Shown piece by piece: positions 11,041 through 26,547 of a stretch of 64,000 bases of DNA; the first letter of the stretch is position 1, and each line of letters opens with the position of its first letter. The stretch lies in the IMG/VR virus record IMGVR_UViG_3300000304_000066; one strand, written 5' to 3'. A model generated the notes under the pieces. It did not search any database. It worked only from the letters and a program-made list of their open reading frames with translations, and was not told the origin of the DNA. This DNA is from an uncultured virus (IMG/VR IMGVR_UViG_3300000304_000066) (taxonomy: Duplodnaviria; Heunggongvirae; Uroviricota; Caudoviricetes). A program made the position numbers and the translations under genes.

Positions 11041-11584
11041 ATATTGGTAGCATATCAGTTTGGTTATTCATTTGCTCTTCAATTAATTCCCATTCATGTG
11101 AAGTAAGCCATTTCCACATAGTTTTCATATAACTTAATTTACCAGTTATAGTCTTATCCGAAATTTCATAATTTAATGCCGATATAATTCTATCATGAAG
11201 TTGAGGATTTCCTTTTACTAGTTTGTTATAATACTCTCTACATTTCTTTATATTACTTCTAAGAAAACCTTTAGTACCATCTGGTCTAATAACCATAGTA
11301 GGATATAACATATAGAATTGCTCAAAAAGTGTATTTTTAGGAGTTATCTTTTCTGTTAATTCCTTAGTTGGTTTATAAATAACCTTAGTATTATCGGTAA
11401 TCTTTTGAATAAGATTTCTGTCGATTAAATCTTGTATCTCATTATCACTGACCAGGCGAATAATGGTGGTGATACCTTGATTGAATTTTTGATTTTTATC
11501 TAATACAAGACTTAAAAATACTAGCTGATTAATTGATAATTTACCTATTGTTTTAAGTAGGTTTGTATCAATTTCAATAATCAT
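11021..11584 (-). CDS. putative replication initiator / helicase-loader-associated protein
   Basis: wHTH-like N-terminus and FEQFYMLYP motif; lies directly upstream of DnaB. Confidence 0.5.
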   Translation of the reverse strand: MIIEIDTNLLKTIGKLSINQLVFLSLVLDKNQKFNQGITTIIRLVSDNEIQDLIDRNLIQKITDNTKVIYKPTKELTEKITPKNTLFEQFYMLYPTMVIRPDGTKGFLRSNIKKCREYYNKLVKGNPQLHDRIISALNYEISDKTITGKLSYMKTMWKWLTSHEWELIEEQMNNQTDMLPIYGTQLR

Positions 11585-11637
11585 GCTCTATTTATTTTAG
11601 AACCTGATAATGATATGATAGAATCTGTAAGAATTTG

Positions 11638-13545
11638 TTAAAAATCAAACAGGTTTAGTTGTCTTGGTTTTAATTGTTCAATTATCTTTGTACATTGGAT
11701 TATATAATATTGATAATTAATATCATATATACTTTGGAATGTTTCTCCTTGAGAATATTTCCATTGTAAATCCTCATCAGAATAAAGTCTATTGTGTAAT
11801 TTTACACCATATCCTTTTAACATATTCTGATATTGTTTTTTTCCTGTCTCATCAGTTTTCCATTTCCATAGATAATATCCATTATTACTAACGTAAAATC
11901 TATTAGTTCTTTGCTGAATTTGTTCGTTATACTCAACTGTCCATTGCTTTCCAGTCTTTTCAGCTTGTAAGAATTTACGAATATCTCTACAAGATTCTAT
12001 AGTTTCTTTAACAGGAATACCATCTACAAAGTAATTGATAATTGCTTCAGGTATAATTTTAGGAGTTAAACCTTTACCTAATTCAATATTAGTTAGGAAA
12101 AATCCTTTCTTTTTTATTTTATTGTTTGGTTCTACTCCGAAATAATCATTAATTGCCAATTGATAAAACTGAGTAAATTCCTCAGTTTCCAGAGTAAGCA
12201 TAGTAAGTTCTTCCCATTCCTTTAATACTTGTTGTAATTCTTTATATTTAGCCTTTTTAAGCTTATATAAGATACCATCAGTATTAATCTGATATAACTT
12301 ACATCCTAATTTTAAAAGTCTTTCAGCAAGCATTAAAAGCAACAATTGACCATTAATTCTTACTTGCATTACAGTAAACGGTGAATATAACCAAGATGTT
12401 TCATCTTGCATTTTACCCGATACACCATTTAACATGTATTTATATGTTTCGTTTTTGTTCTTCTGGCCAGTTCTCTTAAATTCTAATCGATCATCAATAA
12501 TTTGTGGAAATATTTGTTCTAATACATCCTTTAATTTAGGTGGGTAAAGATGATACATTCTCATAAGAGATGGGTATAGTGAATTAACATCACTATCTAA
12601 TAATAATTCATCTTCATCTGGTTTAATAATACAAGTACCATTATCACCATGAATACCACCTACTCCAATAGTTACTTCCATTTCACCAAATATAAAAGTA
12701 TTTATATATCCTTTTCTACCTGGTGATATATGATGCTGATTTTTCATATCAGCAAGTTTACTTTGTAATATTGGAGATTCAAATTTTATCCAAGGAAATA
12801 TTACTTTTTCAAGATCTACGTAATCAGCTGGAGATTTCATATTCTCTAATTGCTTCTTACTTAATCCTGTTTTTTCCATTACTTTTAATTGAAGTAATTT
12901 ATCTCCTAAATTTACTCGATCTAAACTTAAGCAAGGTAATCCAAAATCTTTTTCGGTTTCTACACGTAATTCTAGTAGATCTTTACATCTATATAATAAT
13001 TCTTCAGTAGATTCTACATCATTAATATTATAAGATATTAATTTATCCATATCTTTTTCTGGAAGATCTTGGTGCCAATCTACTATAAATTCTTCTACAT
13101 TCTTATATTGCATTGTTACTTGCATCTCTTTTAAAGATACTCGTAATGCTTTAGAATATAGCATAGTTAATAGGTCTATTGATAAGAAATTTTTAGTATA
13201 CTTATATTCTTTCCATAAGTCAAAATTAGAATCTTTATCAATTACTATCTGACTCATTCTAAATACAGATTCAGTTATTTGTCTAGTATTAAAATATTCA
13301 AAATATCTTTTAGTAAATAGAGAAAATAAATAATTTAATACGGGATTATCATAATGATGGTTATTATATCCAACAAAATAACAATCTTGTTTAAAATATT
13401 CATACAATTTTTCAATATCTACTTTTCTTGAAGATATTTCAAATATATTAATAATATTTGTATCTGTATTTTTACAAGTACAAGTAAATATATTTTTTAA
13501 AACTTCAATATCAAAGACTATACAGGTTTTGTCTTTTATTTTCAT
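11638..13545 (-). CDS. family B DNA polymerase
   Basis: FDIE exonuclease motif, DVNSLYP, KYMLNGVSG, INTDG. Start moved to ATG 13545 because the track start lies inside the tRNA. Confidence 0.92.
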   Translation of the reverse strand: MKIKDKTCIVFDIEVLKNIFTCTCKNTDTNIINIFEISSRKVDIEKLYEYFKQDCYFVGYNNHHYDNPVLNYLFSLFTKRYFEYFNTRQITESVFRMSQIVIDKDSNFDLWKEYKYTKNFLSIDLLTMLYSKALRVSLKEMQVTMQYKNVEEFIVDWHQDLPEKDMDKLISYNINDVESTEELLYRCKDLLELRVETEKDFGLPCLSLDRVNLGDKLLQLKVMEKTGLSKKQLENMKSPADYVDLEKVIFPWIKFESPILQSKLADMKNQHHISPGRKGYINTFIFGEMEVTIGVGGIHGDNGTCIIKPDEDELLLDSDVNSLYPSLMRMYHLYPPKLKDVLEQIFPQIIDDRLEFKRTGQKNKNETYKYMLNGVSGKMQDETSWLYSPFTVMQVRINGQLLLLMLAERLLKLGCKLYQINTDGILYKLKKAKYKELQQVLKEWEELTMLTLETEEFTQFYQLAINDYFGVEPNNKIKKKGFFLTNIELGKGLTPKIIPEAIINYFVDGIPVKETIESCRDIRKFLQAEKTGKQWTVEYNEQIQQRTNRFYVSNNGYYLWKWKTDETGKKQYQNMLKGYGVKLHNRLYSDEDLQWKYSQGETFQSIYDINYQYYIIQCTKIIEQLKPRQLNLFDF

Positions 13546-13560
13546 ATACTGTACTATTAG

Positions 13561-13633
13561 TTGCAAGAGAAAGACTCGAACTTTCAACCTTTGGCTTGTG
13601 AGACCAACGCGCTACCAATTGCGCCATCTTGCG
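13561..13633 (-). tRNA. tRNA with CAC anticodon (nominally Val) and an initiator-fMet-like body
   Basis: 73-nt cloverleaf CGCAAGA..GCGC/GCGC..UUGGU-CUCACAA-GCCAA..GAAAG-UUCGAGU-CUUUC-UCUUGCA-A; C1xA72 mismatch. Confidence 0.85.
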
Positions 13634-13671
13634 ATATTGTGCGATTATACAGACGCACCCCTGTTGTAAAA

Positions 13672-14898
13672 TTAAGCTGCTTTTTGCTTAGAGTTTTCTT
13701 CTTTTTTCTTAAATGCTTCTTCCTTCGCTTTTTGTGCGACAATTTTTTGCCAATTATCAGAAACGAAGTACATTACAGCTTTTTCTACATTTGCTACTTT
13801 AGCTTCGATTTTTGCATATTTCTTATCCTTCTTTGCGAAGCATTTGTTTCTGGAAGTTAAGAAGTTTAATAAATCTCCTGGGAAGATTTTCATCTCCCTT
13901 GTTTCCGATAAGAACAATTCATTATTGTCATTAATCTTATAAATATTAATGAAATAATCTTTTACTTTTGGATTATCAACTCTTTTTACAAGTTGATCTG
14001 CATTAAATGGTCGAGCAACGACCTTGATCTTTACTTTGGGAACTTTAATTCCACCCTTAGTAAGATACATAGCTCGTTTATCTTCTTGTTTCTTATTACG
14101 AGCTAGCTGTGCTTTCTTGAACGCTTCTAAATCTTTAGCTGCTTTTTGTTTTTGAGTTAATTCAACGATTTGAAGTTTTTCCATTCGTTTAACCCGTTTT
14201 GCAACTAACATCTCTAAGCGTTCCGTTTCATTCTTTTTACGTTTCTCTTGACGAGACTTAAATCCTTCAGGATCAGCTTGTTTCTCAGATTTTTGACGTC
14301 TCATTTCTGCCATATAATTTTCATAGGCAATACGACGTTTTTCCTCCTCAGAAATTGTACGCTCTTCCTTAGTAGTGCGTTTCGTATCAAGTTTCTTTTC
14401 TTTGCGATCTTTGTGTTTATGAAGTTCATTTAAAGCTTTATTTATTGCTTTTTCTTTACGAGTTTCTTTTATTTTAGCTCTCTCTTCATCAGTTATATGA
14501 ATTTTTTCCATTTTCTCTGCATGTTTGACCTCTATAATTTTTGCATTTTCTTCTTGTTTTTTTCTAACTATTTTAATATAATCTTCATAAACTTTTTTAT
14601 CTTCTTCCTTAGCCCATTTACCTACGTGATAAAAAGGAATAGTTTTATTTAACTCAATACGAGCTGTATTTTTTCTTTCACGTTTAGCTTGTGCAGCTTC
14701 TTTACGTTTCTTAGTAGCTTCTGCTATAAGTTCTTCTTTTCTACTAATCCAAGCTTTTTCAATTTCTTCTTTCTTAATTGCAGCATTAAGAATACGATCT
14801 GCAAGCTCATTTGCATTATTAATAATAGTACTTGTTAAATTTTTAGCTTTATCTATAATAGAACTATTATTTGTTGATTTGATATCATTTGTTTTCAT
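13672..14898 (-). CDS. K/E/R-rich coiled-coil protein, C-terminus ...QKAA
   Basis: Long charged helical ORF; start moved to ATG 14898 (MKTNDIK). Confidence 0.7.
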   Translation of the reverse strand: MKTNDIKSTNNSSIIDKAKNLTSTIINNANELADRILNAAIKKEEIEKAWISRKEELIAEATKKRKEAAQAKRERKNTARIELNKTIPFYHVGKWAKEEDKKVYEDYIKIVRKKQEENAKIIEVKHAEKMEKIHITDEERAKIKETRKEKAINKALNELHKHKDRKEKKLDTKRTTKEERTISEEEKRRIAYENYMAEMRRQKSEKQADPEGFKSRQEKRKKNETERLEMLVAKRVKRMEKLQIVELTQKQKAAKDLEAFKKAQLARNKKQEDKRAMYLTKGGIKVPKVKIKVVARPFNADQLVKRVDNPKVKDYFINIYKINDNNELFLSETREMKIFPGDLLNFLTSRNKCFAKKDKKYAKIEAKVANVEKAVMYFVSDNWQKIVAQKAKEEAFKKKEENSKQKAA

Positions 14899-14944
14899 AA
14901 ATTTTGATAATTTAAAATTGTTTAAAATAATTTTCGGAACTTGA

Positions 14945-15009
14945 GGTTTGCCTGGGATTCGAACCCAACTTGCCAGATTACTATTCCAACCAAATGGTAA
15001 CGACAAACC
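14945..15009 (-). ncRNA. tRNA-like structure lacking a D-arm
   Basis: GGUUUGU/GCAAACC acceptor-like stem, UUGGG-UUCGAAU-CCCAG T-arm and one internal stem UUACCA/UGGCAA. Confidence 0.55.
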
Positions 15010-15016
15010 ATTAATT

Positions 15017-15526
15017 TTATGCTGCTAAATACATATAAGTTTTATCTGTATCTAACTCGGCATTACTGTTAAAATCCTCTAATTTCTTTTTCAGTTCGAT
15101 TATTTCTAGTTGTAAATTATTTCGCATCTTAGTTAAGAAATCACGAGTTAACTCCTCTTCCTCGTTCAACTTCTTTTTACCTTTTTTCATTTTAAAGATA
15201 GGATCGATAGTTGCTTTCTCAATAAGAATACCAATCTGAACAAACTGCTCATTAATTTCAGATAACTTAAAGATAGTAGGATAAATACATTCTTTAGGTA
15301 AATCTGTACGAGATTTAAATCCCATATTAATACACAACTGATCTAATTTACACTGAATTCGGTCATTAGCTTTACTTTGGATATCATATAGCAATGATTT
15401 CATATCATAATGACGTTTGTATCCTTTTTTTACTTTATTCTCATTACGAATAATATTCCACTGCCAAGTAATATCTTTGTGTAACTTCTCCAATTTTGCC
15501 TTAATATCTGTTGATTTCATACTCAT
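15017..15526 (-). CDS. hypothetical helical protein, C-terminus ...YMYLAA
   Basis: 169-aa ORF. Confidence 0.75.
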   Translation of the reverse strand: MSMKSTDIKAKLEKLHKDITWQWNIIRNENKVKKGYKRHYDMKSLLYDIQSKANDRIQCKLDQLCINMGFKSRTDLPKECIYPTIFKLSEINEQFVQIGILIEKATIDPIFKMKKGKKKLNEEEELTRDFLTKMRNNLQLEIIELKKKLEDFNSNAELDTDKTYMYLAA

Positions 15527-15804
15527 ATATAAATTGATTTTAAATTAATAACTCATTTTAATAAATCTCTTTATACTTGAATTTGACTCAACTACCTGTG
15601 AAGGCACGCTCACCCTTGATGTGATATCTTCTTCTTATTCTCGAAGCTAGCCACCTACTTAGTATCCATTACAAATACATTATCGTGCCCATATATAATG
15701 TAGGGAATACACTCACCAATTTCCCTACATTAATGAAAAATATCTTGAGTAAGATAAAATAATTTAACTCATCTGTATTATTTTTCTTACTTATGGTATT
15801 CTAT

Positions 15805-16332
15805 TTATGGACGACGGAATAGAACTTGAGTAGGATTACTCAAATCTACTACAACAGCTTGGCCTGAACCATCTTTTATAACAACACCATTTACTAATAC
15901 ATTTGACTTATTTTTCTTCCCTCTCTCAACTACAGGAGAATCTTCAGTCATTGTTTTAATATCAGGCGCTAATACAAAGCGATAAGCTACAAATATGGCG
16001 GAAATAGCCAAGCTATAATTTCCGTCTTTATAATATTCAGTAAAACGTCGACATAGATCTTCATATGCGGCGTCATTACGACCACTACCGAAACCGGTTA
16101 TTATCTTAATTAGTCTAAGACAAATCATCTCAGGACTAAGCGTTTTTTCAGCTCCAAATAAACGATTAATCCATTTATTTGAAGTTTTACCAATCGTTAT
16201 AGATCCATCTTTGTTTACTGTAATGTATTTTGCTAGATCTTTCTCATCTGTTTCTAGCAAAGTCATTACAAGTTCTTTATCAGATATCATGTAAGATAGA
16301 TCTCTAAATGCCCACGCACTTAAGGCATCCAT
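15805..16332 (-). CDS. hypothetical protein
   Basis: 175-aa ORF. Confidence 0.75.
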   Translation of the reverse strand: MDALSAWAFRDLSYMISDKELVMTLLETDEKDLAKYITVNKDGSITIGKTSNKWINRLFGAEKTLSPEMICLRLIKIITGFGSGRNDAAYEDLCRRFTEYYKDGNYSLAISAIFVAYRFVLAPDIKTMTEDSPVVERGKKNKSNVLVNGVVIKDGSGQAVVVDLSNPTQVLFRRP

Positions 16333-16337
16333 AAGAA

Positions 16338-16874
16338 TCAGATATTAATGTCAATACCAAACTCTTTCATTGCGACTTTACAAGCTGCAATCTCTGTCTC
16401 ATTAGCCTCTGCCAATGTACCACAGAATTTCATCTGCTGATTCAAGAAGTTCTGCAATGTTTTCTTCTCATCCAAATTCAATGCAATAACTTCCCGTAAC
16501 AATTTTTCATAATCAGTAAAGATAGTAATATCTTCCCGATTAGACCGTTCATACTTCTCAATAGCTGCTTTTACTGTAGCTGCCGATGGAATAGGAATAA
16601 CCTTATTAATATCATCAATATTGGCTATATCAAGCCGTAATTGAGGATTATGGTTAAACTCAACTTTAGATTCGTTATTCATAGTAGTAATAATCTCTAC
16701 TGATGTAACCTCAATTGGTTTAATCGAATAGAGATGAATTGCCCGACTAAGCCGTAACAAATCATTCTTAACTGCATCAGAATATCCAGGATCTACTGGA
16801 TTCCGTTCTACAACCAAAATCTTTTTACCCAATGTTGCGCCACATTGTGCAGCATTAATTCGCATATGATTCAT
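16338..16874 (-). CDS. hypothetical protein directly downstream of the large non-coding tract
   Basis: 178-aa ORF preceded by a hairpin and AAGGAGG. Confidence 0.75.
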   Translation of the reverse strand: MNHMRINAAQCGATLGKKILVVERNPVDPGYSDAVKNDLLRLSRAIHLYSIKPIEVTSVEIITTMNNESKVEFNHNPQLRLDIANIDDINKVIPIPSAATVKAAIEKYERSNREDITIFTDYEKLLREVIALNLDEKKTLQNFLNQQMKFCGTLAEANETEIAACKVAMKEFGIDINI

Positions 16875-16959
16875 AATTCATTTCCTCCTTGATTTCGTGG
16901 TTGATTCCACCAACGAAATGTTTTAATGTTAAACTATTAATTCTTAAGTTAAAAGTAAA

Positions 16960-19370
16960 TAAACTCATTTCTAATACTGGAGTGTTGTTCATACAGGGGC
17001 TTGTTGCTCGGCAGCCTGTTGCGTAACTCAATCGCTACTCCAAGTTTCTTCTATATACTTGATAAGATAGAGTAGATTCTATTTCACTATGTAATCACGC
17101 TATTGACTATTACTCTAGCTACCTACATAGACATACTTAAGTAGATACTTCCTCTTCTTAAGCACTACGTTATCATTTGTAGATTGTAGGACTAGTCTTA
17201 CTTTAGAATCATTCTTTACTTTTCACACTTTTGATGAAGGTTACGTATTAAAGATCTAAGTGTCTTTTACGATTGTCCTAACATCAGACTAATGAGATCC
17301 TACGACATCAAAGTGAGTCACAAGATCAACATATTAAATACTATCTTCTACCGCTGTATATTGATAGGGATGTGTATATGCTAATAATTTAAATCATTTC
17401 TAGGCTTCTCTAGCAAATGTTATATACATTGTCAATACAAATATACTATAAAGTATGCACACTTTAGATTGGCCTAAGTATGCTGACTAGATATAATAAA
17501 TTATATAGGACTACATTATCGAATGCTCCACACATACGGTCGTTTTAAGAACGTTACCAAACTCAACTCTACCAGTCATTTCACCCTGAAGTGGTTGCCA
17601 CTTGTTCTTTCACATGCAGTATACTGCCCATGTGACCCTTACGAGGATTTTTCTATTTTACAAGCACGAATATTGAGGACTTTCACCTACTTTCCATTTA
17701 CTCTTACTTACGACAGGTCTAAAGGTCTATAAGTTTTAATGAAACGCTTTCTATTGAACATTATATCATTGCGGTAATATAACTCTAATAGTTTTAATTT
17801 AGCAATAACGGTTGGCTTGCTAAGGTCGCATTCATCCTAAGTAATTATCTATCTTTACAACAGTAGTTTATTACTATTATAAGACCAGCGAGGACTTCCT
17901 TAGAATTTTGGTTATTCGGGATTTTGGCCCCTACGTTGTTAAACAATAATGATATTCTTTATTTAAGAGGAAATATGACTCTCGGGCCAGTGATGAATCG
18001 TTAGATTCAGAGCAATATTTATATATTTCGAAACAACCTATGGTATATAATATTACTTTTATTCTAGTTTTCTAGACTTGAATTTAGCCCATTGATTCTA
18101 TACAAACCCTACTTTCGCTGTATATCTTAAGGAAAGCTTAAACTGAACTTTAACACATTTTTCAGACTACCCTACTGACAGTTGTGTTGACTGGTCGTTA
18201 AATATCTTTTATCGGGAGGATCAGTTCCCATTATAAGCGAATACTATTTTTTATTCGTATGCCAATGTTGCCAGCATTGTCTTATAATATGAATTAGTGA
18301 TGTGGTTCACTTTTTCAAACCTCTACGTTTCCATCTATTATCGTGATACAACTCAATTGTAGAAAATACGATCACGGTTGATATAATAGTTCTATAAAGT
18401 ATAGGTTTGGCACCTAATCCGGATAATCTGTCATATATACTATAATAATAAGTTCCGATTTATTTTATTTATATATATGGATCATAGCCACTCAGCCATA
18501 TGCTCTAAAGTAATAACACAGACTGTTGTCCTTTACTTCCACGAGTAAAAAACTGCAGAATTGTACTGCTTTACTTTATTACGTAGCACTCTATAGCACC
18601 CTCTATTATACCTAATCCCCTTTATAACTACATTACCTTACATTTTAATGTAAGTGTTCCAGCACTACTGTAGTAAACACTAGGATAGCAAATTTATTTA
18701 ACTTATTCATCCAACTTACGATAGAATGAATTCAGTAAGGTAGCTTTGGACACTACCTGGAACTTAGTCAGTTCTTTGTTGAGTATTCTATTACCCTTTG
18801 TAATAGTTGCAGCTGCCGTTTTAAGTCCCTTCTTGATTTCGAGATTGGTTTCTCCCACGGACTCTTTACGAAGTTTATTATTGTCTTACTCTAGACGTAT
18901 AATTATATCTGTCACTAATATAATTATAATAATTACTGAGGCATACTCCGTACATCGTTTATCTTAGTGGTTCCCTACTTTATCGGTAAGCACATCGAAG
19001 TGTCTTTTAATTTCTCCACCAGACGGTTCTCGAGATTTATGGGTTGATGCTAACACTTTCCCATTTTCTTACTAACGTTTCCGAAGTAAAGGAATAAAAC
19101 TTCATAGTAAGTTATCATGCTCTTGGCTCAATATATACATTTGGAGAATGTATATTATTCCTACGGCATCCTGTATTCCTTGTCCATATCATACGATCTG
19201 CTTGGCCTTTGCTCGTCCTAATATAATATGCGCTGTCTTATTGCATTTTAAGTCTTACAGCTACAATACGACTGTTCTTCTTATTATAGGGGAGAACTTG
19301 TTTTCCCTATGGGCATTCTTTGTAACCCTGTATTACTTACTCGATCTGTCTAAAGATCATAAAATGTGAA
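16960..19370 (-). ncRNA. candidate giant structured non-coding RNA (~2.4 kb); boundaries approximate
   Basis: No minus-strand ORF of 60 aa or more; dense hairpins and junctions; embedded in a minus-strand gene run. Confidence 0.6.
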
Positions 19371-19440
19371 AACAAACAAAATAATAGTAATAAAATTATT
19401 CCTATAAGTGATAATATTTCTAATATTTATTTCTTTGTCT

Positions 19441-19842
19441 TCATCTCCTCACCGTTTTAGGTAACTCAATACTTGGTACGTGAAGATGAGGTTCCGGTAA
19501 GGAAAATAACACTACCTTCTCCAAGTATTCAGTTTTTGTTTCATATTTTACCTCCTTTTTTATAACGGGTTTCTCTACTACCTTTTCCACGATTTTCGTG
19601 GGGTGATTTACGGTAACATCAACATCAGTGATCGGCATATCACTTTTTACGTTGGAAATACCTTTTTCTAGATCAATCTCTAAGGACAAATTGTCCTTAG
19701 GATTGAATTTTAATGTAGGTAAGTCTATTGGTTTCGAACTTGCCTGAACTTCTCCAATATTGGAAAAATTCGTATTGTAAGCTAATAATATACCTACAAT
19801 AGCAAATGCAATGTATGTAAGTAAATTGCCATCTTTATTCAT
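19441..19842 (-). CDS. membrane-anchored hypothetical protein
   Basis: N-terminal TM segment LLTYIAFAIVGILLAY. Confidence 0.7.
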   Translation of the reverse strand: MNKDGNLLTYIAFAIVGILLAYNTNFSNIGEVQASSKPIDLPTLKFNPKDNLSLEIDLEKGISNVKSDMPITDVDVTVNHPTKIVEKVVEKPVIKKEVKYETKTEYLEKVVLFSLPEPHLHVPSIELPKTVRR

Positions 19843-19864
19843 TTTGATAATGTTTATAAGATTA

Positions 19865-21226
19865 TTATTGAGCTAATGCTTTAGGATATTCATCCTCTTT
19901 ATAGAGATCAAATGCGGCATCTTTATCAACATAAAGATTGCGAATTTCAATCATCTTATTTGTAACTTTTAGATGAAATTGAGGATCAGCAAGATGGAAC
20001 TCGCTTTTATAAGCTTCTTTGAACTTATTCATGATTTTCTTTGCTGTAGCAATTTGAGTTGCATTTTCAGCAGAATAATCAATTCTTGGAACTTCACTAT
20101 CAATCGGAACATGTAGGAAGAATTCCCGAGTAGGTTCAAGAATGCCGTTCTTTACAGCTAGAGATTCATCAATTGGTTTACTAGGATCATCTTGTCGAAT
20201 CTTAATAAACGATTTTAATAGATCAGCAACTTCCTCTTCACTCAATACCGGTAAATTATATTTAATTGTCGAATGAGCAAATATAGGATTATGATCTACA
20301 ATTAACGAAGAAACTGTACCTTGACACAAACCTCGTACAAGTGCAGTTGACTTATTTCCTAATAAGGATACTGCATCTTCAAATAAAGCACCAAGACCTA
20401 TTTTATCCCAAGTAGCTTTCTTTTCAGTATCTGTCTCTTGATTTTGACGATATTGTCTTACTTTCATAAGACATTCGTTAAATCTATTCGGAAATGGTGT
20501 ATTTGGCTGTACCAAAACATAACTTAATCCTTTCTTTGCTTCTTCATCAGAAGTCCATTTCGTAGGATTAAGCTCCGGAGTTACTTTTTTTTCTTCTTTA
20601 ATCTCTTCTTTAGCTGCTTTTTCAGTCTCAGGAGAAATCTCCTTAAACTGTAATGTCATTTGTCCATCATTACTAGTATGAGGTGCTAATGCTACACCTA
20701 AACTATTAAATGTATCAATAACATCTTGAACAACTACATCATCATTAGGAACCGCAATACCTAATTCCAACTTCTCTTCACGAGCCTGAATAGTAGCTTT
20801 GGTTAATCCCCAAGCTAGATTATAAGTAAATGCTTGTTCCATCTTGATTGTAGCCGGCTCACCTGGTTTCATATTTGCTATATGCCGCTGAGCAACATCT
20901 AACAAACGTGCATAACCATCACCAGACATTCGTTGTTCTGGTTTTAGCTTAATATTATCTAAACTAACTGTAGAAGGAATAGTTTCTTGCTTTTGTGGTT
21001 TAACCTCTTCTACTTTAACTTCCTCTACAGAAGGATCTTCTGCAGGTGGTGGAGTAGGATCGGTCTTCTTATCTTCCTTCTTAGGCTTAGGATCTGCTTT
21101 AGGCTTAGTATCCTCTGCCTTCTTTGCAGGATTGGTTACTTGTGCAGTAGTTGCACTTATATTCTTATCCTCTTTCTTCTCAGTCGTCTTTGGCTGAGAG
21201 TTATTTTTATTATTCTTCTTAGACAT
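19865..21226 (-). CDS. hypothetical protein with disordered K/E/P-rich N-terminus
   Basis: 453-aa ORF. Confidence 0.8.
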   Translation of the reverse strand: MSKKNNKNNSQPKTTEKKEDKNISATTAQVTNPAKKAEDTKPKADPKPKKEDKKTDPTPPPAEDPSVEEVKVEEVKPQKQETIPSTVSLDNIKLKPEQRMSGDGYARLLDVAQRHIANMKPGEPATIKMEQAFTYNLAWGLTKATIQAREEKLELGIAVPNDDVVVQDVIDTFNSLGVALAPHTSNDGQMTLQFKEISPETEKAAKEEIKEEKKVTPELNPTKWTSDEEAKKGLSYVLVQPNTPFPNRFNECLMKVRQYRQNQETDTEKKATWDKIGLGALFEDAVSLLGNKSTALVRGLCQGTVSSLIVDHNPIFAHSTIKYNLPVLSEEEVADLLKSFIKIRQDDPSKPIDESLAVKNGILEPTREFFLHVPIDSEVPRIDYSAENATQIATAKKIMNKFKEAYKSEFHLADPQFHLKVTNKMIEIRNLYVDKDAAFDLYKEDEYPKALAQ

Positions 21227-21315
21227 AATAATTGATTTATTTACTGTCCTTTACAGTTTTAAAAATTAATAAACTAGATGTAATTATTTTTATAATGATC
21301 CCGATTCTTTTCTCT

Positions 21316-21705
21316 CTATCCTGAATCCTCGTATGGTGGACTTATTGTAACCGTACGATAATTAAAAGGAATTTTTGGTTGTTGTAGGTCTCCATTATCC
21401 TCATTTTGTAAGTTAATTACCTTACCTACAAGCTTATTTGTTGCTACAATTATAGGTGTCACTCCCATAATCTGCAAAACTTGTATGGGTACATAACTAA
21501 CATGAGAGACTTTTTCGATCTTAGTATCATTTTTAAAGGACTTACAACTGTCCTTCTTATTATTGATTCCTAAGCCTACAACAACACCAAACGCTAGTGC
21601 AATCAAAAGATTAACACCAATCTTCGGGCTACCTTGAATTCTACCTATTGCAATAATAAGCAGAATTAAGGCAATTAACATAAAGATGAAAGATGTTGTT
21701 GTCAT
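21316..21705 (-). CDS. two-TM membrane protein downstream of the ECF sigma (possible anti-sigma)
   Basis: Two hydrophobic helices; 6 nt after the sigma stop codon. Confidence 0.6.
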   Translation of the reverse strand: MTTTSFIFMLIALILLIIAIGRIQGSPKIGVNLLIALAFGVVVGLGINNKKDSCKSFKNDTKIEKVSHVSYVPIQVLQIMGVTPIIVATNKLVGKVINLQNEDNGDLQQPKIPFNYRTVTISPPYEDSG

Positions 21706-21711
21706 GTTTTG

Positions 21712-22272
21712 TTAAATTTTTGAAAGTTTTTGAAATATTACTCTCAACTTACGTTTTGCCTTATTTAGGTCGGATTTAATTGTACCGACTGGAATTCCAA
21801 GCTCAACGCTAAGTTGTTCATAACTAAGATCTTTAAAGTATCTCAACTCGAGTAAATTACGATACTTAGATCTTAGACGAGATAGTGCAATCTTCAATAG
21901 ATCAATATCTTCCGTTTTAATCATATCTGACTCGGGATCTGGAGATATTTCTCTAATTTGAAAATTGCTTTCTTCATCATCAATACTAATATTCTTTTGT
22001 AAATCCTTTGATGCTCTGATATAATCAATTGTAGTATTAACTGCAATTGTTTTTAACCAAGCTTCGAAACTTAATGGATTTATATAAGAATCTAATTTAT
22101 TAAAAGCTTTTATGAATGTATTACTTACTAAATCTTTAGTAAGATCATCATCTTTAACTATATCGTATATAATATAGCGTATCAATTTATGATACCGATC
22201 ATATAATTGAGTAAAAGCTTTCTTTTCGCCACGTTTAGCTTGTTCTACGAGAGTATTTGTATCTATTTTCAT
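21712..22272 (-). CDS. ECF-family RNA polymerase sigma factor
   Basis: AFTQLYDRY, FEAWLKTIAVNTTIDYIR (region 2); LSYEQLSVELGIPVGTIKSDLNKAK (region 4). Confidence 0.93.
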   Translation of the reverse strand: MKIDTNTLVEQAKRGEKKAFTQLYDRYHKLIRYIIYDIVKDDDLTKDLVSNTFIKAFNKLDSYINPLSFEAWLKTIAVNTTIDYIRASKDLQKNISIDDEESNFQIREISPDPESDMIKTEDIDLLKIALSRLRSKYRNLLELRYFKDLSYEQLSVELGIPVGTIKSDLNKAKRKLRVIFQKLSKI

Positions 22273-22318
22273 AAAGCAAGCAATTTAGTAAATGTAGGGA
22301 AGTCGAACTCCTACATTC

Positions 22319-22877
22319 TTAAAATGGAATACCTAATATTTGTTGATAATAATAATTTAAGTATACTCTTTTTCTAGAGTAATAACAAAAAATCATATTA
22401 TCAAACATTATATCTTTATAATGCCTAGATAATTCTANNNNNNNNNNNNNNNNNNNNNNNNNNNNNNNNNNNNNNNNNNNNNNNNNNNNNNNNNNNNNNN
22501 NNNNNNNNNNNNNNNNNNNNNNNNNNNNNNNNNNNNNNTGCTGAAGCTATTCTTAAAAATATAAAATCTGTAGCATGTGTTCTTAATAACATTTTACTAG
22601 GATAAAATACATTAAGAGAAATCCATACTACCCATCTTCTTACTTGAGGAATAGCTTTTTGCCATTCCTTAAATAATAAATTATCTGGTTTAATAGGTAG
22701 ATTCCATCCAAAATATTTTTCAAATTCTGAACCAATTATTCGCCAATCAATTCTATATCCTTGATCTGTAAGCCTAGGAATAAATTCTTTATCACAGTCT
22801 CTTTGAAAATATTCCATTAATTTATCACAGAGTTCCCCTTGCTTATTGAAGATGAATTCTTTTTTAATTTTTTCCAT
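22319..22877 (-). CDS. hypothetical protein spanning an N-gap, ending ...QILGIPF
   Basis: A frame continues after the gap to TAA at 22321-22319. Confidence 0.55.
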
Positions 22878-23305
22878 TTGTCTTCGTTATTAAAGCGGTT
22901 ATTAACTCTTTCAAATATTTCTTTTGCTTCATCCCAAGTAATATGATAATTGACTTGAATATCGGCTACAGTATTTATTAATATCAAGTTTCCACAATCA
23001 TCAATATTTTCTTCTCTTGTGAATCTAAGATATTCTTCATCAGTAAATAGAATAGGTTCACGTTTAATAGGTTCTTTTACTTTATCTTCTTTTTCAATTT
23101 CATTTGATAAATATACAAATGTAAATTGATCAGGAGATTTCGTAATGTTGTCTATTACTTCATGATTTTTCTCTATTTTAGAATTAGTAAAGTCTGTAAG
23201 ATCAATAGCATTAGTAATTCTTATAAATGGTTCAATACCATTTAAAGCAACTAAATATTTTCTTTCAGATACATTGTTCTTAACTACGTATATACCAGCT
23301 TTCAT
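22817..23305 (-). CDS. hypothetical protein
   Basis: 162-aa ORF. Confidence 0.7.
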   Translation of the reverse strand: MKAGIYVVKNNVSERKYLVALNGIEPFIRITNAIDLTDFTNSKIEKNHEVIDNITKSPDQFTFVYLSNEIEKEDKVKEPIKREPILFTDEEYLRFTREENIDDCGNLILINTVADIQVNYHITWDEAKEIFERVNNRFNNEDKWKKLKKNSSSISKGNSVIN

Positions 23306-23493
23306 TTTCTTATTTCTTTATTATATGTTTCAATAACTCTTGATGCAGTAAGCATATCTAAATTAAACTCTTTTTGAATCATTTCAAGTTGTTTATATTC
23401 CTCGAAATTATCATTCATTATTTGAATAAGCTTTTGTTTCTCACCTGGCTTTTCAAAATAAATCCAATAGCCTAATCTCATATTATTCTGCAA
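23302..23493 (-). CDS. hypothetical protein
   Basis: 63-aa ORF overlapping both neighbours. Confidence 0.6.
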   Translation of the reverse strand: MQNNMRLGYWIYFEKPGEKQKLIQIMNDNFEEYKQLEMIQKEFNLDMLTASRVIETYNKEIRK

Positions 23494-23842
23494 TTAAAGT
23501 TGGTATTTCTTTAGTAATAAGAAGTTTTTCAGCTTCTTTCCATTGTCTTGGTAGATTAATCGTACGTATTACTTTACGATATTTATTTACTTTCTTATTA
23601 TGATAGTAATTCCACCAAGTCCAATTAAGAACTTTTACTACTCCAAATTTACTATTTATTCCTTCATTTGTACAAAGAATTACAAATGGATTACCAGAAC
23701 TAAGAATAACTTCATTAGCCGATTTATCCTTAGCACAAGCTCCCATACGAATTAACTTTAAATAAAATCCTTTTAAATGTCTTCGTACACCGGCAGCAAT
23801 AAATTCATTTTTAAACTTTACTAAATTTCTATTCTCATCCAT
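23483..23842 (-). CDS. hypothetical protein
   Basis: 119-aa ORF. Confidence 0.65.
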   Translation of the reverse strand: MDENRNLVKFKNEFIAAGVRRHLKGFYLKLIRMGACAKDKSANEVILSSGNPFVILCTNEGINSKFGVVKVLNWTWWNYYHNKKVNKYRKVIRTINLPRQWKEAEKLLITKEIPTLIAE

Positions 23843-23873
23843 AAAATTTATTATTTATTGATTAAACAATATT

Positions 23874-23947
23874 GTTATCTGTGTGGGATTCGAACCCACA
23901 AACCTCCTGGTAAAATCCAGGGCTCTAGCCATTTGAGCTACAGATAC
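23874..23947 (-). tRNA. pseudo-tRNA (Lys-like) with a 6-nt anticodon loop
   Basis: UAUCUG/CAGAUA, GCUC/GAGC D-arm, CCUGG-AUUUUA-CCAGG, GUGGG-UUCGAAU-CCCAC. Confidence 0.7.
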
Positions 23948-23949
23948 CC

Positions 23950-24160
23950 TCACTTTCGTAGCTAGCACGTTAGATTACGCTGCTATCGCAGTATAATCTG
24001 TGACAAATATATTGCCATTTAAATTTAATTATGAACCTATTTTATCTTCTATATGCAATCAAAAACCCGTTAGCCCCTTGTAAAATATAAATAGTGGAGC
24101 TAGGTGAAGTCGAATCACCGTCTTACATATTTCCAATAAACCTAGTAAGACATCATACAG
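23950..24160 (-). ncRNA. ssrA: circularly permuted (two-piece) tmRNA
   Basis: The 3' acceptor piece GAC-GGUGA-UUCGACU-UCACC-UAGCUCC-A (ends 24095) precedes the 5' piece GGGGCUA (starts 24077). G3.U70 pair; tag GNIFVTDYTAIAA* at 24016-23975. Confidence 0.88.
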
Positions 24161-24186
24161 TTCTTATATGATGAATTTTAATACGT

Positions 24187-24522
24187 TTACTTTGAATTCT
24201 TGTCTTTTAACTTTTTCAAAGTTTTTGTATATTCTTCATTGAACATGTCTTTGAATCTTTCACATTGTTTCGGATAAATTCTAACAAATTCTTCATCTGA
24301 AAGGTCTGTGAATGATTTAGCAATTCTTTTGTTTTTAGTAGTTTTCAGATTTTTGTTGAACTCAACAAAATATCTAGTACTCTCTTTACAGTTAGAACCA
24401 CAAATGACTCTTACTTTAATCATTTGTCTTTCTACTTTACCAAATTTCTTTGTGTATTTGGTTTCTGATTTTACTGCAAGCATACGATCGCATACAGTTA
24501 AGTCTTTTATGAATTTTAACAT
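24187..24522 (-). CDS. hypothetical basic protein
   Basis: 111-aa ORF. Confidence 0.65.
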   Translation of the reverse strand: MLKFIKDLTVCDRMLAVKSETKYTKKFGKVERQMIKVRVICGSNCKESTRYFVEFNKNLKTTKNKRIAKSFTDLSDEEFVRIYPKQCERFKDMFNEEYTKTLKKLKDKNSK

Positions 24523-24559
24523 AATTCTTTATTTGTCGTATTTATAAATGTTAAAATAA

Positions 24560-25110
24560 AATCTAAAGTAATAGTAAATAGGGGATTATTACGTGAACTG
24601 TCAATTATCGGACTTATAGATCTCTTCGGATAATGCCATTTGAGTCACATATTTAGAATAATACTATTTAGGCTTATAGCTCTCTATTACTTTAGTAATT
24701 CGCCTTTGATAGATCATATAGAACTTGAACAGGTTTAATAAATCTAGAACTAAATATACGGATTTACTATATGTTCGGCTTAAAGCTCTAGTTCTATTTG
24801 TGATTTGATATCATTACTATTACAAACTCTATTTCTAGAGCCTATTACTATAGGTCATGGGTTAAACCTCTAGTGATACAACTTGCCGTCTTTATCTACT
24901 GTCGCAATTTATAGTAATAGTAATGATCTTAGGCACATGATCAGTGGCTCAAATCTTCCACTCTGGTTCAAAGACTCTTGAGTTCCTGTTAATTCAGGAT
25001 TTTTTACCTACTACCTTTCGGATTAGAATCGTGGCATTAGTCTCTTTCTAAGAGATAATATAAAATTGTCTAATAGAAGAGACTGAGAGGCCTCTCGGAC
25101 ACTCTCAGCT
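24560..25110 (-). ncRNA. candidate structured RNA with a repeated AGAG..U(A/G)A(G/A)CC motif
   Basis: No ORF; long inverted repeats and about six degenerate motif copies. Confidence 0.5.
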
Positions 25111-25138
25111 CTGATTTTGGAATTGTTAACGATAGAGA

Positions 25139-25519
25139 TTAATATCTCCAAGCGTCATTACCGAAGATGTTTTTCTTAGCTTCGTTAATAGCTTTGTCAC
25201 GCTCATCTTCTGCGGTTTCAACGGCTTTATCATACGTTTGATAATCACCGGATGCTTCAAAGGCAGTCTTTGCTGCTGAAATAGCGGTCAGATATTTCTT
25301 CTGTGCTTCTTCTTTCTTACGAGCAAGACGTAAGGATTTCAGTGCTTCTGTCTCAGTATTTTCAGCTTGAGATAAACGACGTTCTACCTCACGAGCTTGT
25401 TGTTCCAACTTCCGCTGTGCAATATTCTCTTTTGCTTTTGTTACTGCATCGCTTGCTACTCTACCTTGATTTGCCTCTTGCTCTTGCAATTTTGCCTCTA
25501 AATTAAAATCGTTTGCCAT
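25139..25519 (-). CDS. alanine-rich coiled-coil hypothetical protein
   Basis: 126-aa ORF. Confidence 0.75.
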   Translation of the reverse strand: MANDFNLEAKLQEQEANQGRVASDAVTKAKENIAQRKLEQQAREVERRLSQAENTETEALKSLRLARKKEEAQKKYLTAISAAKTAFEASGDYQTYDKAVETAEDERDKAINEAKKNIFGNDAWRY

Positions 25520-25566
25520 AATTTTGATAATTTTAAAAAGTTAATAAAATAATTGATTTATTTAGT

Positions 25567-25979
25567 TTAATCTAATCGTTTATTTATTGAGAAACTTTCG
25601 TAAATATCATTCCAATAAGTATTACCTTCTTTAGTGCTATTCCAATAAAGAGTAGTAAATATTATTGATGAAGGTTTACTCTTACTGGTAATAATACATA
25701 CAATGTTTCTTAATTCTGANNNNNNNNNNNNNNNNNNNNNNNNNNNNNNNNNNNNNNNNNNNNNNNNNNNNNNNNNNNNNNNNNNNNNNNNNNNNNNNNN
25801 NNNNNNNNNNNNNNACAATCACTATTCATAATGTATTGTGTTACATTACGAATATATTTTCCTTCTATTCCACGTTCGTTAAGCTTTTTTTTAAAATCTG
25901 TATTTTGTTTAATAGCTTCTCTTATTTGTTTTTTTATTTCTCTTTTGAATTCTGAATCTGGATCTCCTCGTATATTCAT
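25567..25979 (-). CDS. hypothetical protein spanning an N-gap
   Basis: Two track ORFs join across the gap (MNIRGDP... to ...WNSTKEGNTYW). Confidence 0.55.
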
Positions 25980-26428: not shown

Positions 26429-26542
26429 TTAATATTCATCTTTTATTTTCTTAGTACTCTTTTTATAAGGATCCATTTTTGGTTTCTTATTAGGAGTACG
26501 TTCTTGCTTAGATTTTCGAGAATCTTTAAATGTTTTGCCCAT
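26429..26542 (-). CDS. small basic protein (37 aa), not in ORF track
   Basis: MGKTFKDSRKSKQERTPNKKPKMDPYKKSTKKIKDEY*. Confidence 0.55.
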   Translation of the reverse strand: MGKTFKDSRKSKQERTPNKKPKMDPYKKSTKKIKDEY

Positions 26543-26547
26543 AATGA

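What the first reader, a model, noticed from the sequence alone, without database searches (positions are those of the whole stretch)
16960..19370. Candidate giant (~2.4 kb) structured non-coding RNA inside the early arm
Seen: in a tightly packed genome, 2.4 kb has no credible ORF yet is non-repetitive and packed with helices. Examples: AAGTGG/CCACTT 17589-17603; nested CACATG/CATGTG with CAGT/ACTG 17611-17634; a three-way junction ATTATAAG/CTTATAAT enclosing CGAATA/TATTCG and CAATG/CATTG 18230-18288; CTTACATT/AATGTAAG 18637-18654; ATAATTATAT/ATATAATTAT ~18899-18928; ATATACATT/AATGTATAT 19133-19155; ATAGGG/CCCTAT 19286-19310. Purine-rich loop motifs such as GGUGAAAGUCC (17687-17677) read on the minus strand, the strand of the flanking genes. 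Knowledge: the large bacterial and phage ncRNAs I know (GOLLD, ROOL, OLE) are under ~1 kb. Inference: one giant RNA or a cluster of RNAs, possibly working with the flanking genes (ECF sigma, two membrane proteins and the 453-aa protein upstream; 178-aa and 175-aa proteins downstream).
Basis: partly seen in the sequence, partly recalled or inferred. Interest (0 to 1): 0.9.

Follow-up and report, generated by a model that had tools for sequence, protein, structure and literature searches.

The report
Giant structured RNA in crAss-like phages
A stretch of about 2.4 kb in this gut phage encodes no protein but keeps dozens of base-paired helices through evolution, and the same gap sits at the same place across a whole family of abundant gut phages, so it is very probably an unusually large, undescribed functional RNA.

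Summary
Window 16875-19440 has no ORF under any stop reassignment, no repeats, coding-like GC and no 3-nt substitution periodicity.

Single-sequence folding is no better than shuffles. The comparative evidence is very strong:
- In 24 representative homologues, consensus folding energy is -365 against -182 +/- 10 for column shuffles (z -19).
- There are 99 clean covarying pairs, against 15-33 in shuffles and 4-13 with slid partners.
- Adjacent coding DNA from the same genomes shows no excess.
- Two domains pass the session's pair-count controls (0 of 500 shuffles).

The gene (window minus) strand folds better, and G.U outnumbers A.C.

All five Suoliviridae subfamilies sampled have an unannotated 1.85-2.2 kb gap at the same syntenic place. 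A covariance model of one 165-nt domain (F2) hits inside 7 of 11 such gaps. The Loutivirinae and Oafivirinae gaps show conserved structure of their own.

No Rfam family matches, and no paper in the searched library describes the element.

Still open: whether it is one molecule or several (the long-range helices are not beyond chance), whether and how it is transcribed, and what it does. The first ~100 nt are a micro-ORF, not RNA structure.

Best reading: a new class of giant ornate phage RNA.

The parts
19441..19842 (-). Upstream flanking gene, 133 aa, with a hydrophobic N-terminus and no known family. It precedes the RNA locus in all relatives.
   Evidence: ORF list. No Pfam, PHROG, NCBIfam or PADLOC match. 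Synteny.
19337..19444 (-). Micro-ORF of about 30 codons for a hydrophobic peptide. Its ATG overlaps the upstream stop (ATGA). In the window the frame carries an in-frame TAA at codon 6. This stretch is not part of the structured RNA.
   Evidence: Frame translations in 12 lineages: the frame is open and similar in most Boorivirinae lineages, and absent in L172 and L189.
19040..19330 (-). 5' domain, helices H05-H20. It includes the ATAGGG/CCCTAT hairpin (19309-19287) and a multi-helix junction at 19266-19180. It is among the most conserved parts within Boorivirinae.
   Evidence: Helix table. Conservation 0.78-0.83. Alignment A5. Model R2 finds no convincing match outside Boorivirinae.
18701..19035 (-). 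Row of hairpins H21-H28 with variable tips. It includes a conserved hairpin plus an SD-like copy (18862-18825) that resembles the hairpin before the downstream gene.
   Evidence: (repeat D1).
18384..18682 (-). Domain D, closed by H30 (18682-18675 / 18392-18384) and holding H31-H36. A hairpin at 18637-18654 is lineage-specific, and one strain has 38 extra nt at its tip.
   Evidence: Insertion in run X7 at 18642-18644. Conservation peak at 18443-18324.
18140..18376 (-).
   Evidence: Helix table. No consensus pairs are predicted in the bins from 18264 to 18138.
17961..18141 (-). Domain E, helices H42-H47, holding the block CACTGGCCCGAGAGT that is nearly invariant across Boorivirinae lineages. The window has its own ~55-nt insert in it.
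   Evidence: Alignment A6. Pair counts: 98.4% of cells paired; 12 of 30 pairs changed on both sides, against 2-5 with slid partners; 0 of 500 shuffles reached the score. R3 gives no in-gap match in other subfamilies.
17820..17907 (-). Domain F1, helices H50/H51. H50 occurs as seven different complementary sequence variants.
17657..17823 (-). Domain F2, a four-way junction with the invariant hairpin loop UGAAAGU. It is the only part shown to be shared with other Suoliviridae subfamilies.
   Evidence: Alignment A3 and its fold. Pair counts: 97.1% paired; 17 of 40 pairs changed on both sides, against 2-3 with slid partners; 0 of 500 shuffles reached the score. Model R1 matches inside the syntenic gap in 7 of 11 loci of other subfamilies.
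16935..17656 (-). 3' part: hairpins H59-H63 (17646-17520), then a less conserved stretch, H64-H72, with weaker support (80-91% canonical, apart from the 4-bp H72).
   Evidence: Conservation about 0.6. blastn similarity to the distant groups ends near 17650, apart from one short block at 17563-17510.
16884..16917 (-). Conserved hairpin (16917-16894) and SD-like AAGGAGG (16890-16884) just before the start codon of the 178-aa gene.
   Evidence: Sequence. H73 is 100% canonical. Weak IMES-4 match, E 0.37, far below that family's threshold.
16338..16874 (-). Downstream flanking gene, 178 aa, of no known family. It follows the RNA locus in all relatives.
   Evidence: AF2 model pLDDT 78.9. No fold match, best Foldseek E 0.16.

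Best explanation
The interval is a gene, or gene block, for a very large, multi-domain, structured non-coding RNA. It spans about 2.3-2.4 kb in this phage (window ~19336 to ~16935, minus strand). It is made from the same strand as the flanking genes and kept by selection for its base-paired fold, not for a protein.

Shown:
- The region does not code for protein.
- Its sequence is at least as conserved as its coding neighbours.
- Dozens of local and medium-range helices are maintained by compensatory changes.
- The gene strand is the better-folding strand.
- A gap of similar size lies at the same place in all five Suoliviridae subfamilies sampled.
- One 165-nt four-way-junction domain (F2) is recognisably shared by four subfamilies.
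- Two other subfamilies show conserved structure of their own in the gap.

Inferred, not shown:
- The region is transcribed by read-through from the upstream sigma-factor operon.
- The product acts as one long molecule (about 55% by my estimate) and not as several processed pieces.
- It works as GOLLD, ROOL and OLE are thought to, as an abundant RNA scaffold or particle that binds or encloses other macromolecules during infection. It may be tied to the phage's take-over of translation, because a phage tmRNA and tRNA genes lie within a few kb in every relative. I give that specific mechanism about 25%.
For: Not coding:
- Stops of all three kinds fill all six frames, and no stop reassignment opens a frame.
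- Substitution power at period 3 is 1.8 times the median (0-1.2 in slices), against 32.1 and 15.4 in the flanking genes.

Homologues:
- 115 regions, 105 of them unique, all in the same synteny. They form about 13 clusters at 97% identity and 8 at 90%, in three deep groups that are 50-62% identical to one another.
- Mean pairwise identity is 66%, against 58% for the adjacent coding DNA.

Structure, on 24 representatives and 2458 columns:
- RNAalifold energy is -365.4, against -182.4 +/- 9.7 in 12 column shuffles (z -18.9).
- Of 350 pairs, 93% of cells are canonical and 158 pairs changed on both sides.
- 99 of those pairs are clean, against 15-33 in shuffles and 4-13 with partners slid by 1-3 columns.

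Negative control, 840 nt of downstream coding DNA from the same 24 genomes: z -2.1, and 6 clean pairs against 5-8 in the three shuffles printed.

Helices:
- 17 local helices have at least 5 bp, at least 3 covarying pairs and at least 90% canonical cells, against 0-2 in 6 shuffles.
- 28 of 73 helices meet a looser strict rule.
- Tool-level counts for two domains: F2 and E. In both, 0 of 500 shuffles reached the score and slid partners collapsed.

Strand:
- Energy is -365.4 against -325.6 with limited span, and -382.2 against -336.4 in the global fold.
- Among pairs predicted from both strands, G.U 140 against A.C 77.

Family-wide spread:
- Unannotated gaps of 1851-2223 nt sit at the same place in 11 of 11 further loci covering Loutivirinae, Uncouvirinae, Bearivirinae and Oafivirinae. 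Gap GC is within 0.04 of flank GC.
- R1 matches inside the gap on the gene strand in 7 of 11: E 1e-8 to 1e-4 in six and 0.014 in the seventh.
- The Loutivirinae gaps give z -13.4 with 87 clean pairs against 19-33. The Oafivirinae gaps give z -25.6 with 89 against 38-53. Their coding controls do not exceed shuffles in clean pairs.

One unit:
- No terminator-like site lies on the gene strand, and promoter-like sites occur at the chance rate.
- GC is even throughout the region, with no AT-rich spacer.
Against: No transcript has been seen. The four RNA-library runs are contigs that cover the flanking genes as well as the region, so they show neither expression, strand nor ends.

Single-sequence folding is not more stable than dinucleotide shuffles.

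Nothing ties the domains into one fold. The only good long-range helix (H29, span about 1.1 kb) is matched in quality by a helix in 3 of 6 shuffled alignments, and the other long-range candidates are weak.

Only one domain is recognisably shared beyond Boorivirinae:
- R2 (5' domain) gave no convincing in-gap match in 11 loci.
- R3 (domain E) gave none.
- R1 missed both Uncouvirinae loci and Bohxovirus, and reached only E 0.29 in cr273_1.

The strand asymmetry is moderate, its cells are not independent, and over the union of both strands' predictions G.U and A.C are nearly equal, 336 against 319.

The effective number of sequences is small (8-13), and raw mutual information was swamped by phylogeny.

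The proposed scaffold or translation role rests on analogy and neighbourhood only.
Confidence: 0.55

Rival explanations
1. The region is a cluster of several separate structured RNAs, or a precursor cut into separately acting pieces, placed side by side, rather than one giant functional molecule.
For: All well-supported helices are local or medium-range, 300 nt or less. Long-range helices are not beyond chance. Conservation is patchy, with peaks at 19301-19055, 18443-18324 and 18137-17612 separated by variable stretches. Only the F2 module is recognisably shared across subfamilies, while the 5' domain and domain E are not. That pattern fits modules evolving independently.
Against: No promoter-like or terminator-like signals above chance separate the modules on the gene strand. 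No AT-rich spacers of the kind seen between genes elsewhere in the window are present. Total length is held within 2262-2566 nt in Boorivirinae and 1851-2223 nt elsewhere. Domain order is colinear in all alignments. F2 lies at a similar relative place in cr53_1: about 1450-1660 nt into a 2125-nt gap, against about 1620-1780 nt of 2566 in the window.
Confidence: 0.3
2. The region is a very long structured leader or intercistronic region that acts in cis. It would control translation, stability or processing of the downstream 178-aa and 175-aa genes or of the whole operon, with no function as a free RNA.
For: It lies within a co-directional gene block and shows no terminator of its own. A conserved hairpin and an SD-like motif sit directly before the downstream start codon, and a diverged copy of that motif lies inside the region.
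Against: Two kilobases with dozens of conserved helices is far more than any cis-regulator I know of needs (from my own knowledge, not tested here). The SD-like motif is not conserved in the deeper groups (alignment A1). The best-conserved domains lie 800-2400 nt upstream of the downstream start.
Confidence: 0.08
3. The region is a DNA-level element, such as a replication origin, packaging site or other protein-binding region, whose inverted repeats matter as DNA.
For: It lies in the replication-gene arm a few kb from the DNA polymerase gene in relatives. The opposite strand also folds far better than shuffles, z -14.8, as expected for any set of inverted repeats.
Against: The gene strand folds better by about 40-46 kcal/mol in the consensus. 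G.U outnumbers A.C by 140 to 77 in pairs predicted from both strands. There are no iterons or repeats and no AT-rich unwinding stretch. Cumulative GC skew runs on without a turn through the region. Helices with bulges, junctions and invariant loops are kept by compensatory change over about 2 kb, which duplex DNA does not need.
Confidence: 0.04
4. The region is a decayed or unconventionally decoded protein gene: a pseudogene, an intron-riddled gene or one with unusual recoding.
For: crAss-like phages of this group are known for stop-codon reassignment and group I introns (passages of Yutin 2021, PMC7886860). Some records annotate short ORFs inside the gap.
Against: All three stop codons are frequent in all six frames. 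No reassignment helps. There is no 3-nt periodicity of substitution, unlike the flanks. The region is more conserved than the flanking genes, which a pseudogene would not be. No group I or II intron or any other Rfam family appears at E up to 5 in the window or up to 1 in eight other lineages. The short ORFs differ between lineages.
Confidence: 0.02

Closest known systems
[quoted passage not shown]
   Same: Both are large, ornate, covariation-supported non-coding RNAs of unknown function encoded in phages and prophages, often near tRNA genes. GOLLD also has a conserved part and a less conserved part (passages of Kretsch et al. 2025, PMC12286853). Here tRNA and tmRNA genes lie within a few kb, and a conserved core (F2) sits among variable domains.
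   Different: There is no sequence or structure match to the Rfam model. This element is about three times longer, roughly 2.3 kb against 'many members exceeding 800 nucleotides'. It lies in Bacteroidota-type crAss-like phages, inside an operon of protein genes. Multimer or nanocage formation is unknown here.
ROOL RNA (Rumen-Originating, Ornate, Large)
   Same: It is encoded in phages and prophages, often near tRNA islands, has a complex fold, has no known protein partner and has no known function.
   Different: No Rfam match. This element is several times longer (ROOL's size is from my recollection, not from a call). No pseudoknots or multimer contacts have been identified here.
OLE RNA (Ornate Large Extremophilic)
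   Same: It is a large structured bacterial ncRNA that sits within an operon and works with membrane-associated proteins; the protein partnership is recalled, not from a call. Here the immediate upstream neighbours are a hydrophobic 133-aa protein and a hydrophobic micro-ORF.
   Different: No Rfam match. OLE is cellular (Bacillota) and not phage-borne. No homologues of its partner proteins were found among the neighbours.
Self-splicing group I / group II introns of crAss-like phages
   Same: They are structured RNAs of hundreds to thousands of nucleotides and are frequent in this phage group (Yutin 2021 passages).
   Different: No intron family matched. The region lies between two complete genes, each with its own start and stop, not inside one. 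There is no intron-encoded endonuclease or reverse transcriptase ORF.

Membership tests
Any curated RNA family (Rfam 15: GOLLD, ROOL, OLE, rRNA, RNase P, tmRNA, group I/II introns, riboswitches and the rest) | A match to the family covariance model at or near its gathering score | tested here: not met
   Window at gathering scores: no match in the region. Region at E up to 5: only IMES-4 (25 bits against 48) and an S4 leader (21.5 against 48.8), both at the very 3' edge or beyond it. Eight other lineages at E up to 1: nothing in the RNA region.
Large ornate structured ncRNA (an operational class, not a homology family) | Non-coding | tested here: met
Large ornate structured ncRNA (an operational class, not a homology family) | Many helices supported by compensatory base changes, beyond controls | tested here: met
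Large ornate structured ncRNA (an operational class, not a homology family) | Made as a discrete, stable RNA | not testable with these tools
   Only contigs of RNA libraries were available. They cover the flanks equally and show no ends.
Large ornate structured ncRNA (an operational class, not a homology family) | A single fold that ties the domains together (long-range or tertiary contacts) | tested here: inconclusive
   There is one good long-range helix, and an equal one appears in 3 of 6 shuffles.
GOLLD/ROOL-type homo-oligomeric RNA nanocage | Self-assembly into closed multimers | not testable with these tools
   The property is known from cryo-EM. No computation here bears on it.
Protein-coding gene with stop-codon reassignment (crAss-like TAG=Q or TGA=W) | A long frame opens under the alternative code, and substitutions show 3-nt periodicity | tested here: not met
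Group I / group II intron | Interrupts a host gene, and has the conserved catalytic core (P3-P9, or domain V) | tested here: not met
   The flanking ORFs are complete. No intron model matched.

The most novel reading that the evidence does not exclude
A single ~2-2.4 kb RNA, the largest structured non-ribosomal RNA known from bacteria or their viruses and about three times the size of GOLLD. [quoted passage not shown] It would act as an RNA machine in its own right, for example a cage- or scaffold-forming particle or a ribozyme that engages the host translation apparatus together with the phage's own tmRNA and tRNAs.
Probability: 0.3. Interest if true: 0.95.

Novelty: new variant of a known kind. 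Interest (0 to 1): 0.87.

Why it matters
Large structured RNAs without a known function are rare, and each has repaid study: OLE, GOLLD and ROOL were recently found to form unexpected multimeric particles.

This element has no match in Rfam and no description in the searched literature. It is several times larger than any of them.

[quoted passage not shown] It also occurs in phage sequences from chicken and bird, pig, macaque and deer gut samples.

It gives a concrete target with defined domains and covariance models. Those can be used for transcript mapping, chemical probing, cryo-EM and genetics in crAss-like phages, whose biology is still largely unknown.

It also explains a 2-kb hole that current annotations either leave empty or fill with doubtful short ORFs.

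Tried and rejected
Single-sequence folding energy: tiles inside the region are no more stable than shuffles, so it is not usable as evidence. A first version of that script timed out.

Raw mutual information with APC over all column pairs: dominated by phylogeny at 8-13 effective sequences, and the top pairs were mostly not base pairs.

RNA libraries:
- Four runs labelled metatranscriptomic were laid on 9000-28500. They are contigs that cover the flanking genes as well as the region, so they say nothing on expression, strand or ends.
- Two runs of one study have contigs ending at 17685 and 17725. I draw nothing from that.

Other searches:
- Earlier notes of this scan: none for this genome.
- Whole genome of the window: not held.

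Flanking proteins:
- Pfam, PHROGs, NCBIfam and PADLOC name only the sigma factor. The rest were weak hits below cut-off: DUF373 at 19 bits against 28.3, and VakA at E 0.007.
- The 178-aa and 175-aa proteins are not detectably paralogous.
- The ESM Atlas gave no usable hit.
- The AF2 model of the 178-aa protein (pLDDT 78.9) found no fold in the PDB, best Foldseek E 0.16.
- The single-sequence model of the 453-aa protein was too poor to search, pLDDT 41.

Chance hits in the motif scans:
- 6 of 37 in viral contigs.
- 32 of 112 in metagenome contigs.
- 15 of 16 in prokaryote genomes.

Covariance models:
- R2 and R3 gave no convincing hits outside Boorivirinae.
- A weak R1 match at window 31027-31163 (21 bits, E 0.007) lies inside a 163-aa ORF, and I take it as chance.

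The GAAAGUCC motif recalled the RNase P P4 region to me. No RNase P model matches, and here the motif is a hairpin loop, so I dropped the idea.

Literature:
- Nine full-text searches found no description of the element.
- Term searches and passages read in Yutin 2021 and its four text supplements turned up none either.
- The same held for the 2023 Crassvirales review, Mestre 2022 and the VIROINF paper.
- Subscription journals and PDF supplements were not searchable.
Full report
WHAT IS THERE

The interval between the 133-aa ORF (19441-19842, minus strand) and the 178-aa ORF (16338-16874, minus strand) is 2566 nt long and has no credible ORF.
- Each of the six frames holds 48-75 stop codons per about 855 codons, of all three kinds. 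The longest open run is 97 codons.
- Reading TAG, TGA or TAA as sense opens nothing.
- There are no tandem repeats, and only short two-copy matches.
- GC is 0.32-0.36, the same as the flanking genes and unlike the AT-rich spacers elsewhere in the window, 0.19-0.23.
- On the single sequence they are not more than chance. MFE z-scores of 150-nt tiles inside the region range from -2.1 to +1.25 on the gene strand, about -0.3 by my reading, on both strands.

RELATIVES

- blastn against the phage collection found the region in four Boorivirinae species: cr50_1 at 76.7% identity over 94% of the query, then cr55_1, cr1_1 and cr10_1. Almost nothing is annotated under the matches, only one short hypothetical ORF in cr10_1, and the gene order is the same.
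- At the DNA level the region is as conserved as its coding flanks in cr50_1. In the more distant species it keeps more detectable blocks than most flanking genes do.
- Scans with the downstream protein, with a protein alignment and with invariant DNA blocks brought in more loci. Of 37 viral-contig motif hits, 31 are true. The protein-alignment scan gave 47 loci. Of 112 metagenome hits, 80 are true.
- Together these give 115 regions, 105 of them unique. All come from ~100-kb crAss-like contigs or their fragments, and gaps are 2262-2566 nt long.
- They fall into about 13 clusters at 97% identity and 8 at 90%, in three deep groups that are 50-62% identical to one another.
- The window's own lineage is not in those collections; its nearest relatives are 72-77% identical. 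It does occur in chicken, bird and manure runs.

IT IS NOT CODING

The variability of alignment columns has no period of three. Power at period 3 is 1.8 times the median for the whole region and 0-1.2 in slices. The downstream and upstream genes of the same genomes give 32.1 and 15.4.

IT IS STRUCTURED

By eye, the first alignment already showed compensatory changes in several hairpins.

Formal test on 24 representatives (98.5% clustering, 2458 columns):
- The RNAalifold consensus, with span up to 500, has energy -365.4, against -182.4 +/- 9.7 for 12 column-shuffled alignments (z -18.9).
- Its 350 pairs are canonical in 93% of cells, and 158 pairs show changes on both sides.
- 99 of those have at most one non-pairing sequence. 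Shuffles give 15-33, and partners slid by 1-3 columns give 4-13.

Negative control: 840 nt of the adjacent coding DNA from the same 24 genomes, which is more diverged (58% against 66% identity). It gives z -2.1 and 6 such pairs, the same as its shuffles, 5-8.

Further counts:
- The global fold has 73 helices. 28 of them have at least 3 bp, at least 2 covarying pairs and at least 90% canonical cells.
- By a stricter rule (at least 5 bp, at least 3 covarying pairs, at least 90% canonical) there are 17 local helices, against 0-2 in six shuffles.
- Domain F2 (17823-17657), counted with the session's own tools: 40 pairs, 97.1% of cells paired, 17 pairs changed on both sides against 2-3 with slid partners, and 0 of 500 shuffles reaching the score.
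- Domain E (18141-17961): 30 pairs, 98.4% paired, 12 pairs against 2-5, and 0 of 500 shuffles.
- Single helices are telling. H50 exists as seven different complementary sequence variants, and H52 flips three pairs at once between groups.
- Raw mutual information was not informative at this depth.

STRAND

- The gene strand (window minus) folds better than its complement: -365.4 against -325.6 with limited span, and -382.2 against -336.4 globally.
- Among the 199 pairs predicted from both strands, departures from Watson-Crick pairing are G.U in 140 cells and A.C in 77.
- This is moderate support, and the cells are not independent. Over the union of both strands' predictions G.U and A.C are nearly equal, 336 against 319.

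ANATOMY

- The first ~100 nt (19444-19337) are not RNA structure. They are a micro-ORF for a hydrophobic peptide of about 30 residues, whose ATG overlaps the upstream stop. It is conserved in most Boorivirinae lineages and missing in two. In the window it carries an in-frame TAA at codon 6.
- Supported helices run from 19330 to about 17025.
- Conservation peaks at 19301-19055, 18443-18324 and 18137-17612. The last ~600 nt are less conserved.
- Variable hairpin tips and lineage-specific inserts lie between the peaks.
- A conserved hairpin and an SD-like motif precede the downstream start codon, and a diverged copy of that motif lies at 18867-18821.
- No terminator-like site lies on the gene strand, and promoter-like sites occur at the chance rate: 15 found, 13.2 +/- 3.2 expected.

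SPREAD

The flanking 453-aa protein and the sigma factor led to further Suoliviridae. All 11 further loci fetched have the same gene order: tmRNA, two small genes, sigma factor, then genes of ~125, ~460-570 and ~130-160 aa, then the gap, then two genes of ~190 aa.
- The loci are four Loutivirinae-type, two Uncouvirinae, one Bearivirinae and four Oafivirinae.
- Each has an unannotated gap of 1851-2223 nt, with GC within 0.04 of the flanks.
- No long gene-strand frame is open under the standard code or with TAG read as sense. With TGA as sense, the longest runs on the gene strand are 106 and 99 codons, in two loci. Three Oafivirinae gaps have antisense open frames of 150-200 codons.
- Model R1, built from domain F2, matches inside the gap on the gene strand in 7 of 11: 46.9 to 21.3 bits, with E 1e-8 to 1e-4 in six and 0.014 in the seventh.
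- With filters off, cr273_1 gives a weak match carrying the same motifs (E 0.29). Both Uncouvirinae and Bohxovirus give none, although Bohxovirus has the two closing motifs about 290 nt apart.
- The Loutivirinae gaps (4 sequences) and the Oafivirinae gaps (4 sequences) carry conserved structure of their own: z -13.4 and -25.6, with 87 and 89 clean covarying pairs against 19-33 and 38-53 in shuffles. Their coding controls do not exceed shuffles in clean pairs.
- Models of the 5' domain (R2) and of domain E (R3) found nothing convincing outside Boorivirinae.
- So the locus is family-wide, but only one module is recognisably homologous across subfamilies.
- In prokaryote genomes, only one of 16 motif hits is real. 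It lies on an 82-kb contig binned into a deer-caecum MAG, most likely a phage contig.

ONE RNA OR SEVERAL

For one unit: constant length, colinear order, even GC without spacers, and no internal signals.

Against: every well-supported helix spans 300 nt or less. The one good long-range helix (H29, 18690-18683 with 17564-17555) is no better than what 3 of 6 shuffled alignments produce.

I put one molecule at about 55% and a cluster or processed pieces at about 30%.

WHAT IT DOES

Nothing here shows a function.
- The neighbours are unknown proteins apart from an ECF-type sigma factor.
- The 178-aa neighbour folds with fair confidence, but its model matches no solved structure.
- The RNA libraries available are contigs and cover the flanks equally.
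- By analogy with GOLLD and ROOL (phage-borne, near tRNA genes, abundant, forming RNA-only cages), and given the phage tmRNA and tRNAs nearby, I favour an abundant scaffold or particle RNA that engages the translation machinery. I give that about 25%.

KNOWN OR NEW

No Rfam family matches, in the window or in eight other lineages.

Nine full-text searches found no description. Neither did what I read:
- Yutin 2021: term searches and passages, and its four text supplements.
- The 2023 Crassvirales review: term search only, with 0 hits.
- Mestre 2022 and the VIROINF paper: passages.

Subscription-only papers and PDF supplements could not be searched.

I file it as a new class within the known kind 'giant ornate phage or bacterial ncRNA'. 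It is not a member of GOLLD, ROOL or OLE.

Noticed in passing
window 27167-27254 (-): A Hatchet ribozyme, 81.3 bits against a gathering score of 51, on the same strand as the genes.
   Followed up: no
window 23874-24184 (-): A permuted tmRNA (Rfam 48.5 bits against 47; ARAGORN gives a tag peptide) overlapping or abutting a tRNA-like gene. A tmRNA is annotated at the same place, upstream of the sigma factor, in five of the nine records fetched: cr52_1, cr125_1, cr130_1, cr7_1 and cr273_1.
   Followed up: partly
window 19337-19444 (-): A micro-ORF for a hydrophobic peptide of about 30 aa, whose ATG overlaps the stop of the 133-aa gene. It is conserved in most Boorivirinae lineages. In the window it carries an in-frame TAA at codon 6, which could mean a pseudogene, read-through or a sequencing error.
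   Followed up: partly
window 16200-16349 and 19650-19799: Two 150-nt tiles inside the flanking coding sequences fold far better than shuffles on both strands (z -5.2/-3.9 and -5.7/-5.8). That is much more than any tile inside the non-coding region.
   Followed up: no
window 18821-18867 and 16877-16923: A diverged internal copy (72% identical) of the hairpin plus SD-like motif that precedes the 178-aa gene. The internal copy is conserved across the groups but is not followed by a start codon.
   Followed up: partly
window 10533-10841, 22437-22539, 25719-25815, 26171-26261: Strain-level deletions or replacements of 88-307 nt, seen in contigs of up to three of the four RNA-library runs laid, which belong to two studies.
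   Followed up: no
L234 10991-13015, L236 10968-13156, L237 10985-13207: In Oafivirinae the gap holds antisense open frames of 150-200 codons under the standard code. An antisense CDS is annotated inside the gap in Bohxovirus (L236) and in cr7_1 (L235). Whether these are real genes opposite the RNA is open.
   Followed up: no
L239 (82-kb contig of a MAG from deer caecum): A crAss-like contig carrying the RNA (R1 137 bits) has been binned into a Lachnospiraceae MAG. This is probably a binning artefact and not a host link.
   Followed up: partly
window 31027-31163 (-): A weak match to the F2 model (21.3 bits, E 0.007) inside a 163-aa ORF. I take it as chance.
   Followed up: partly
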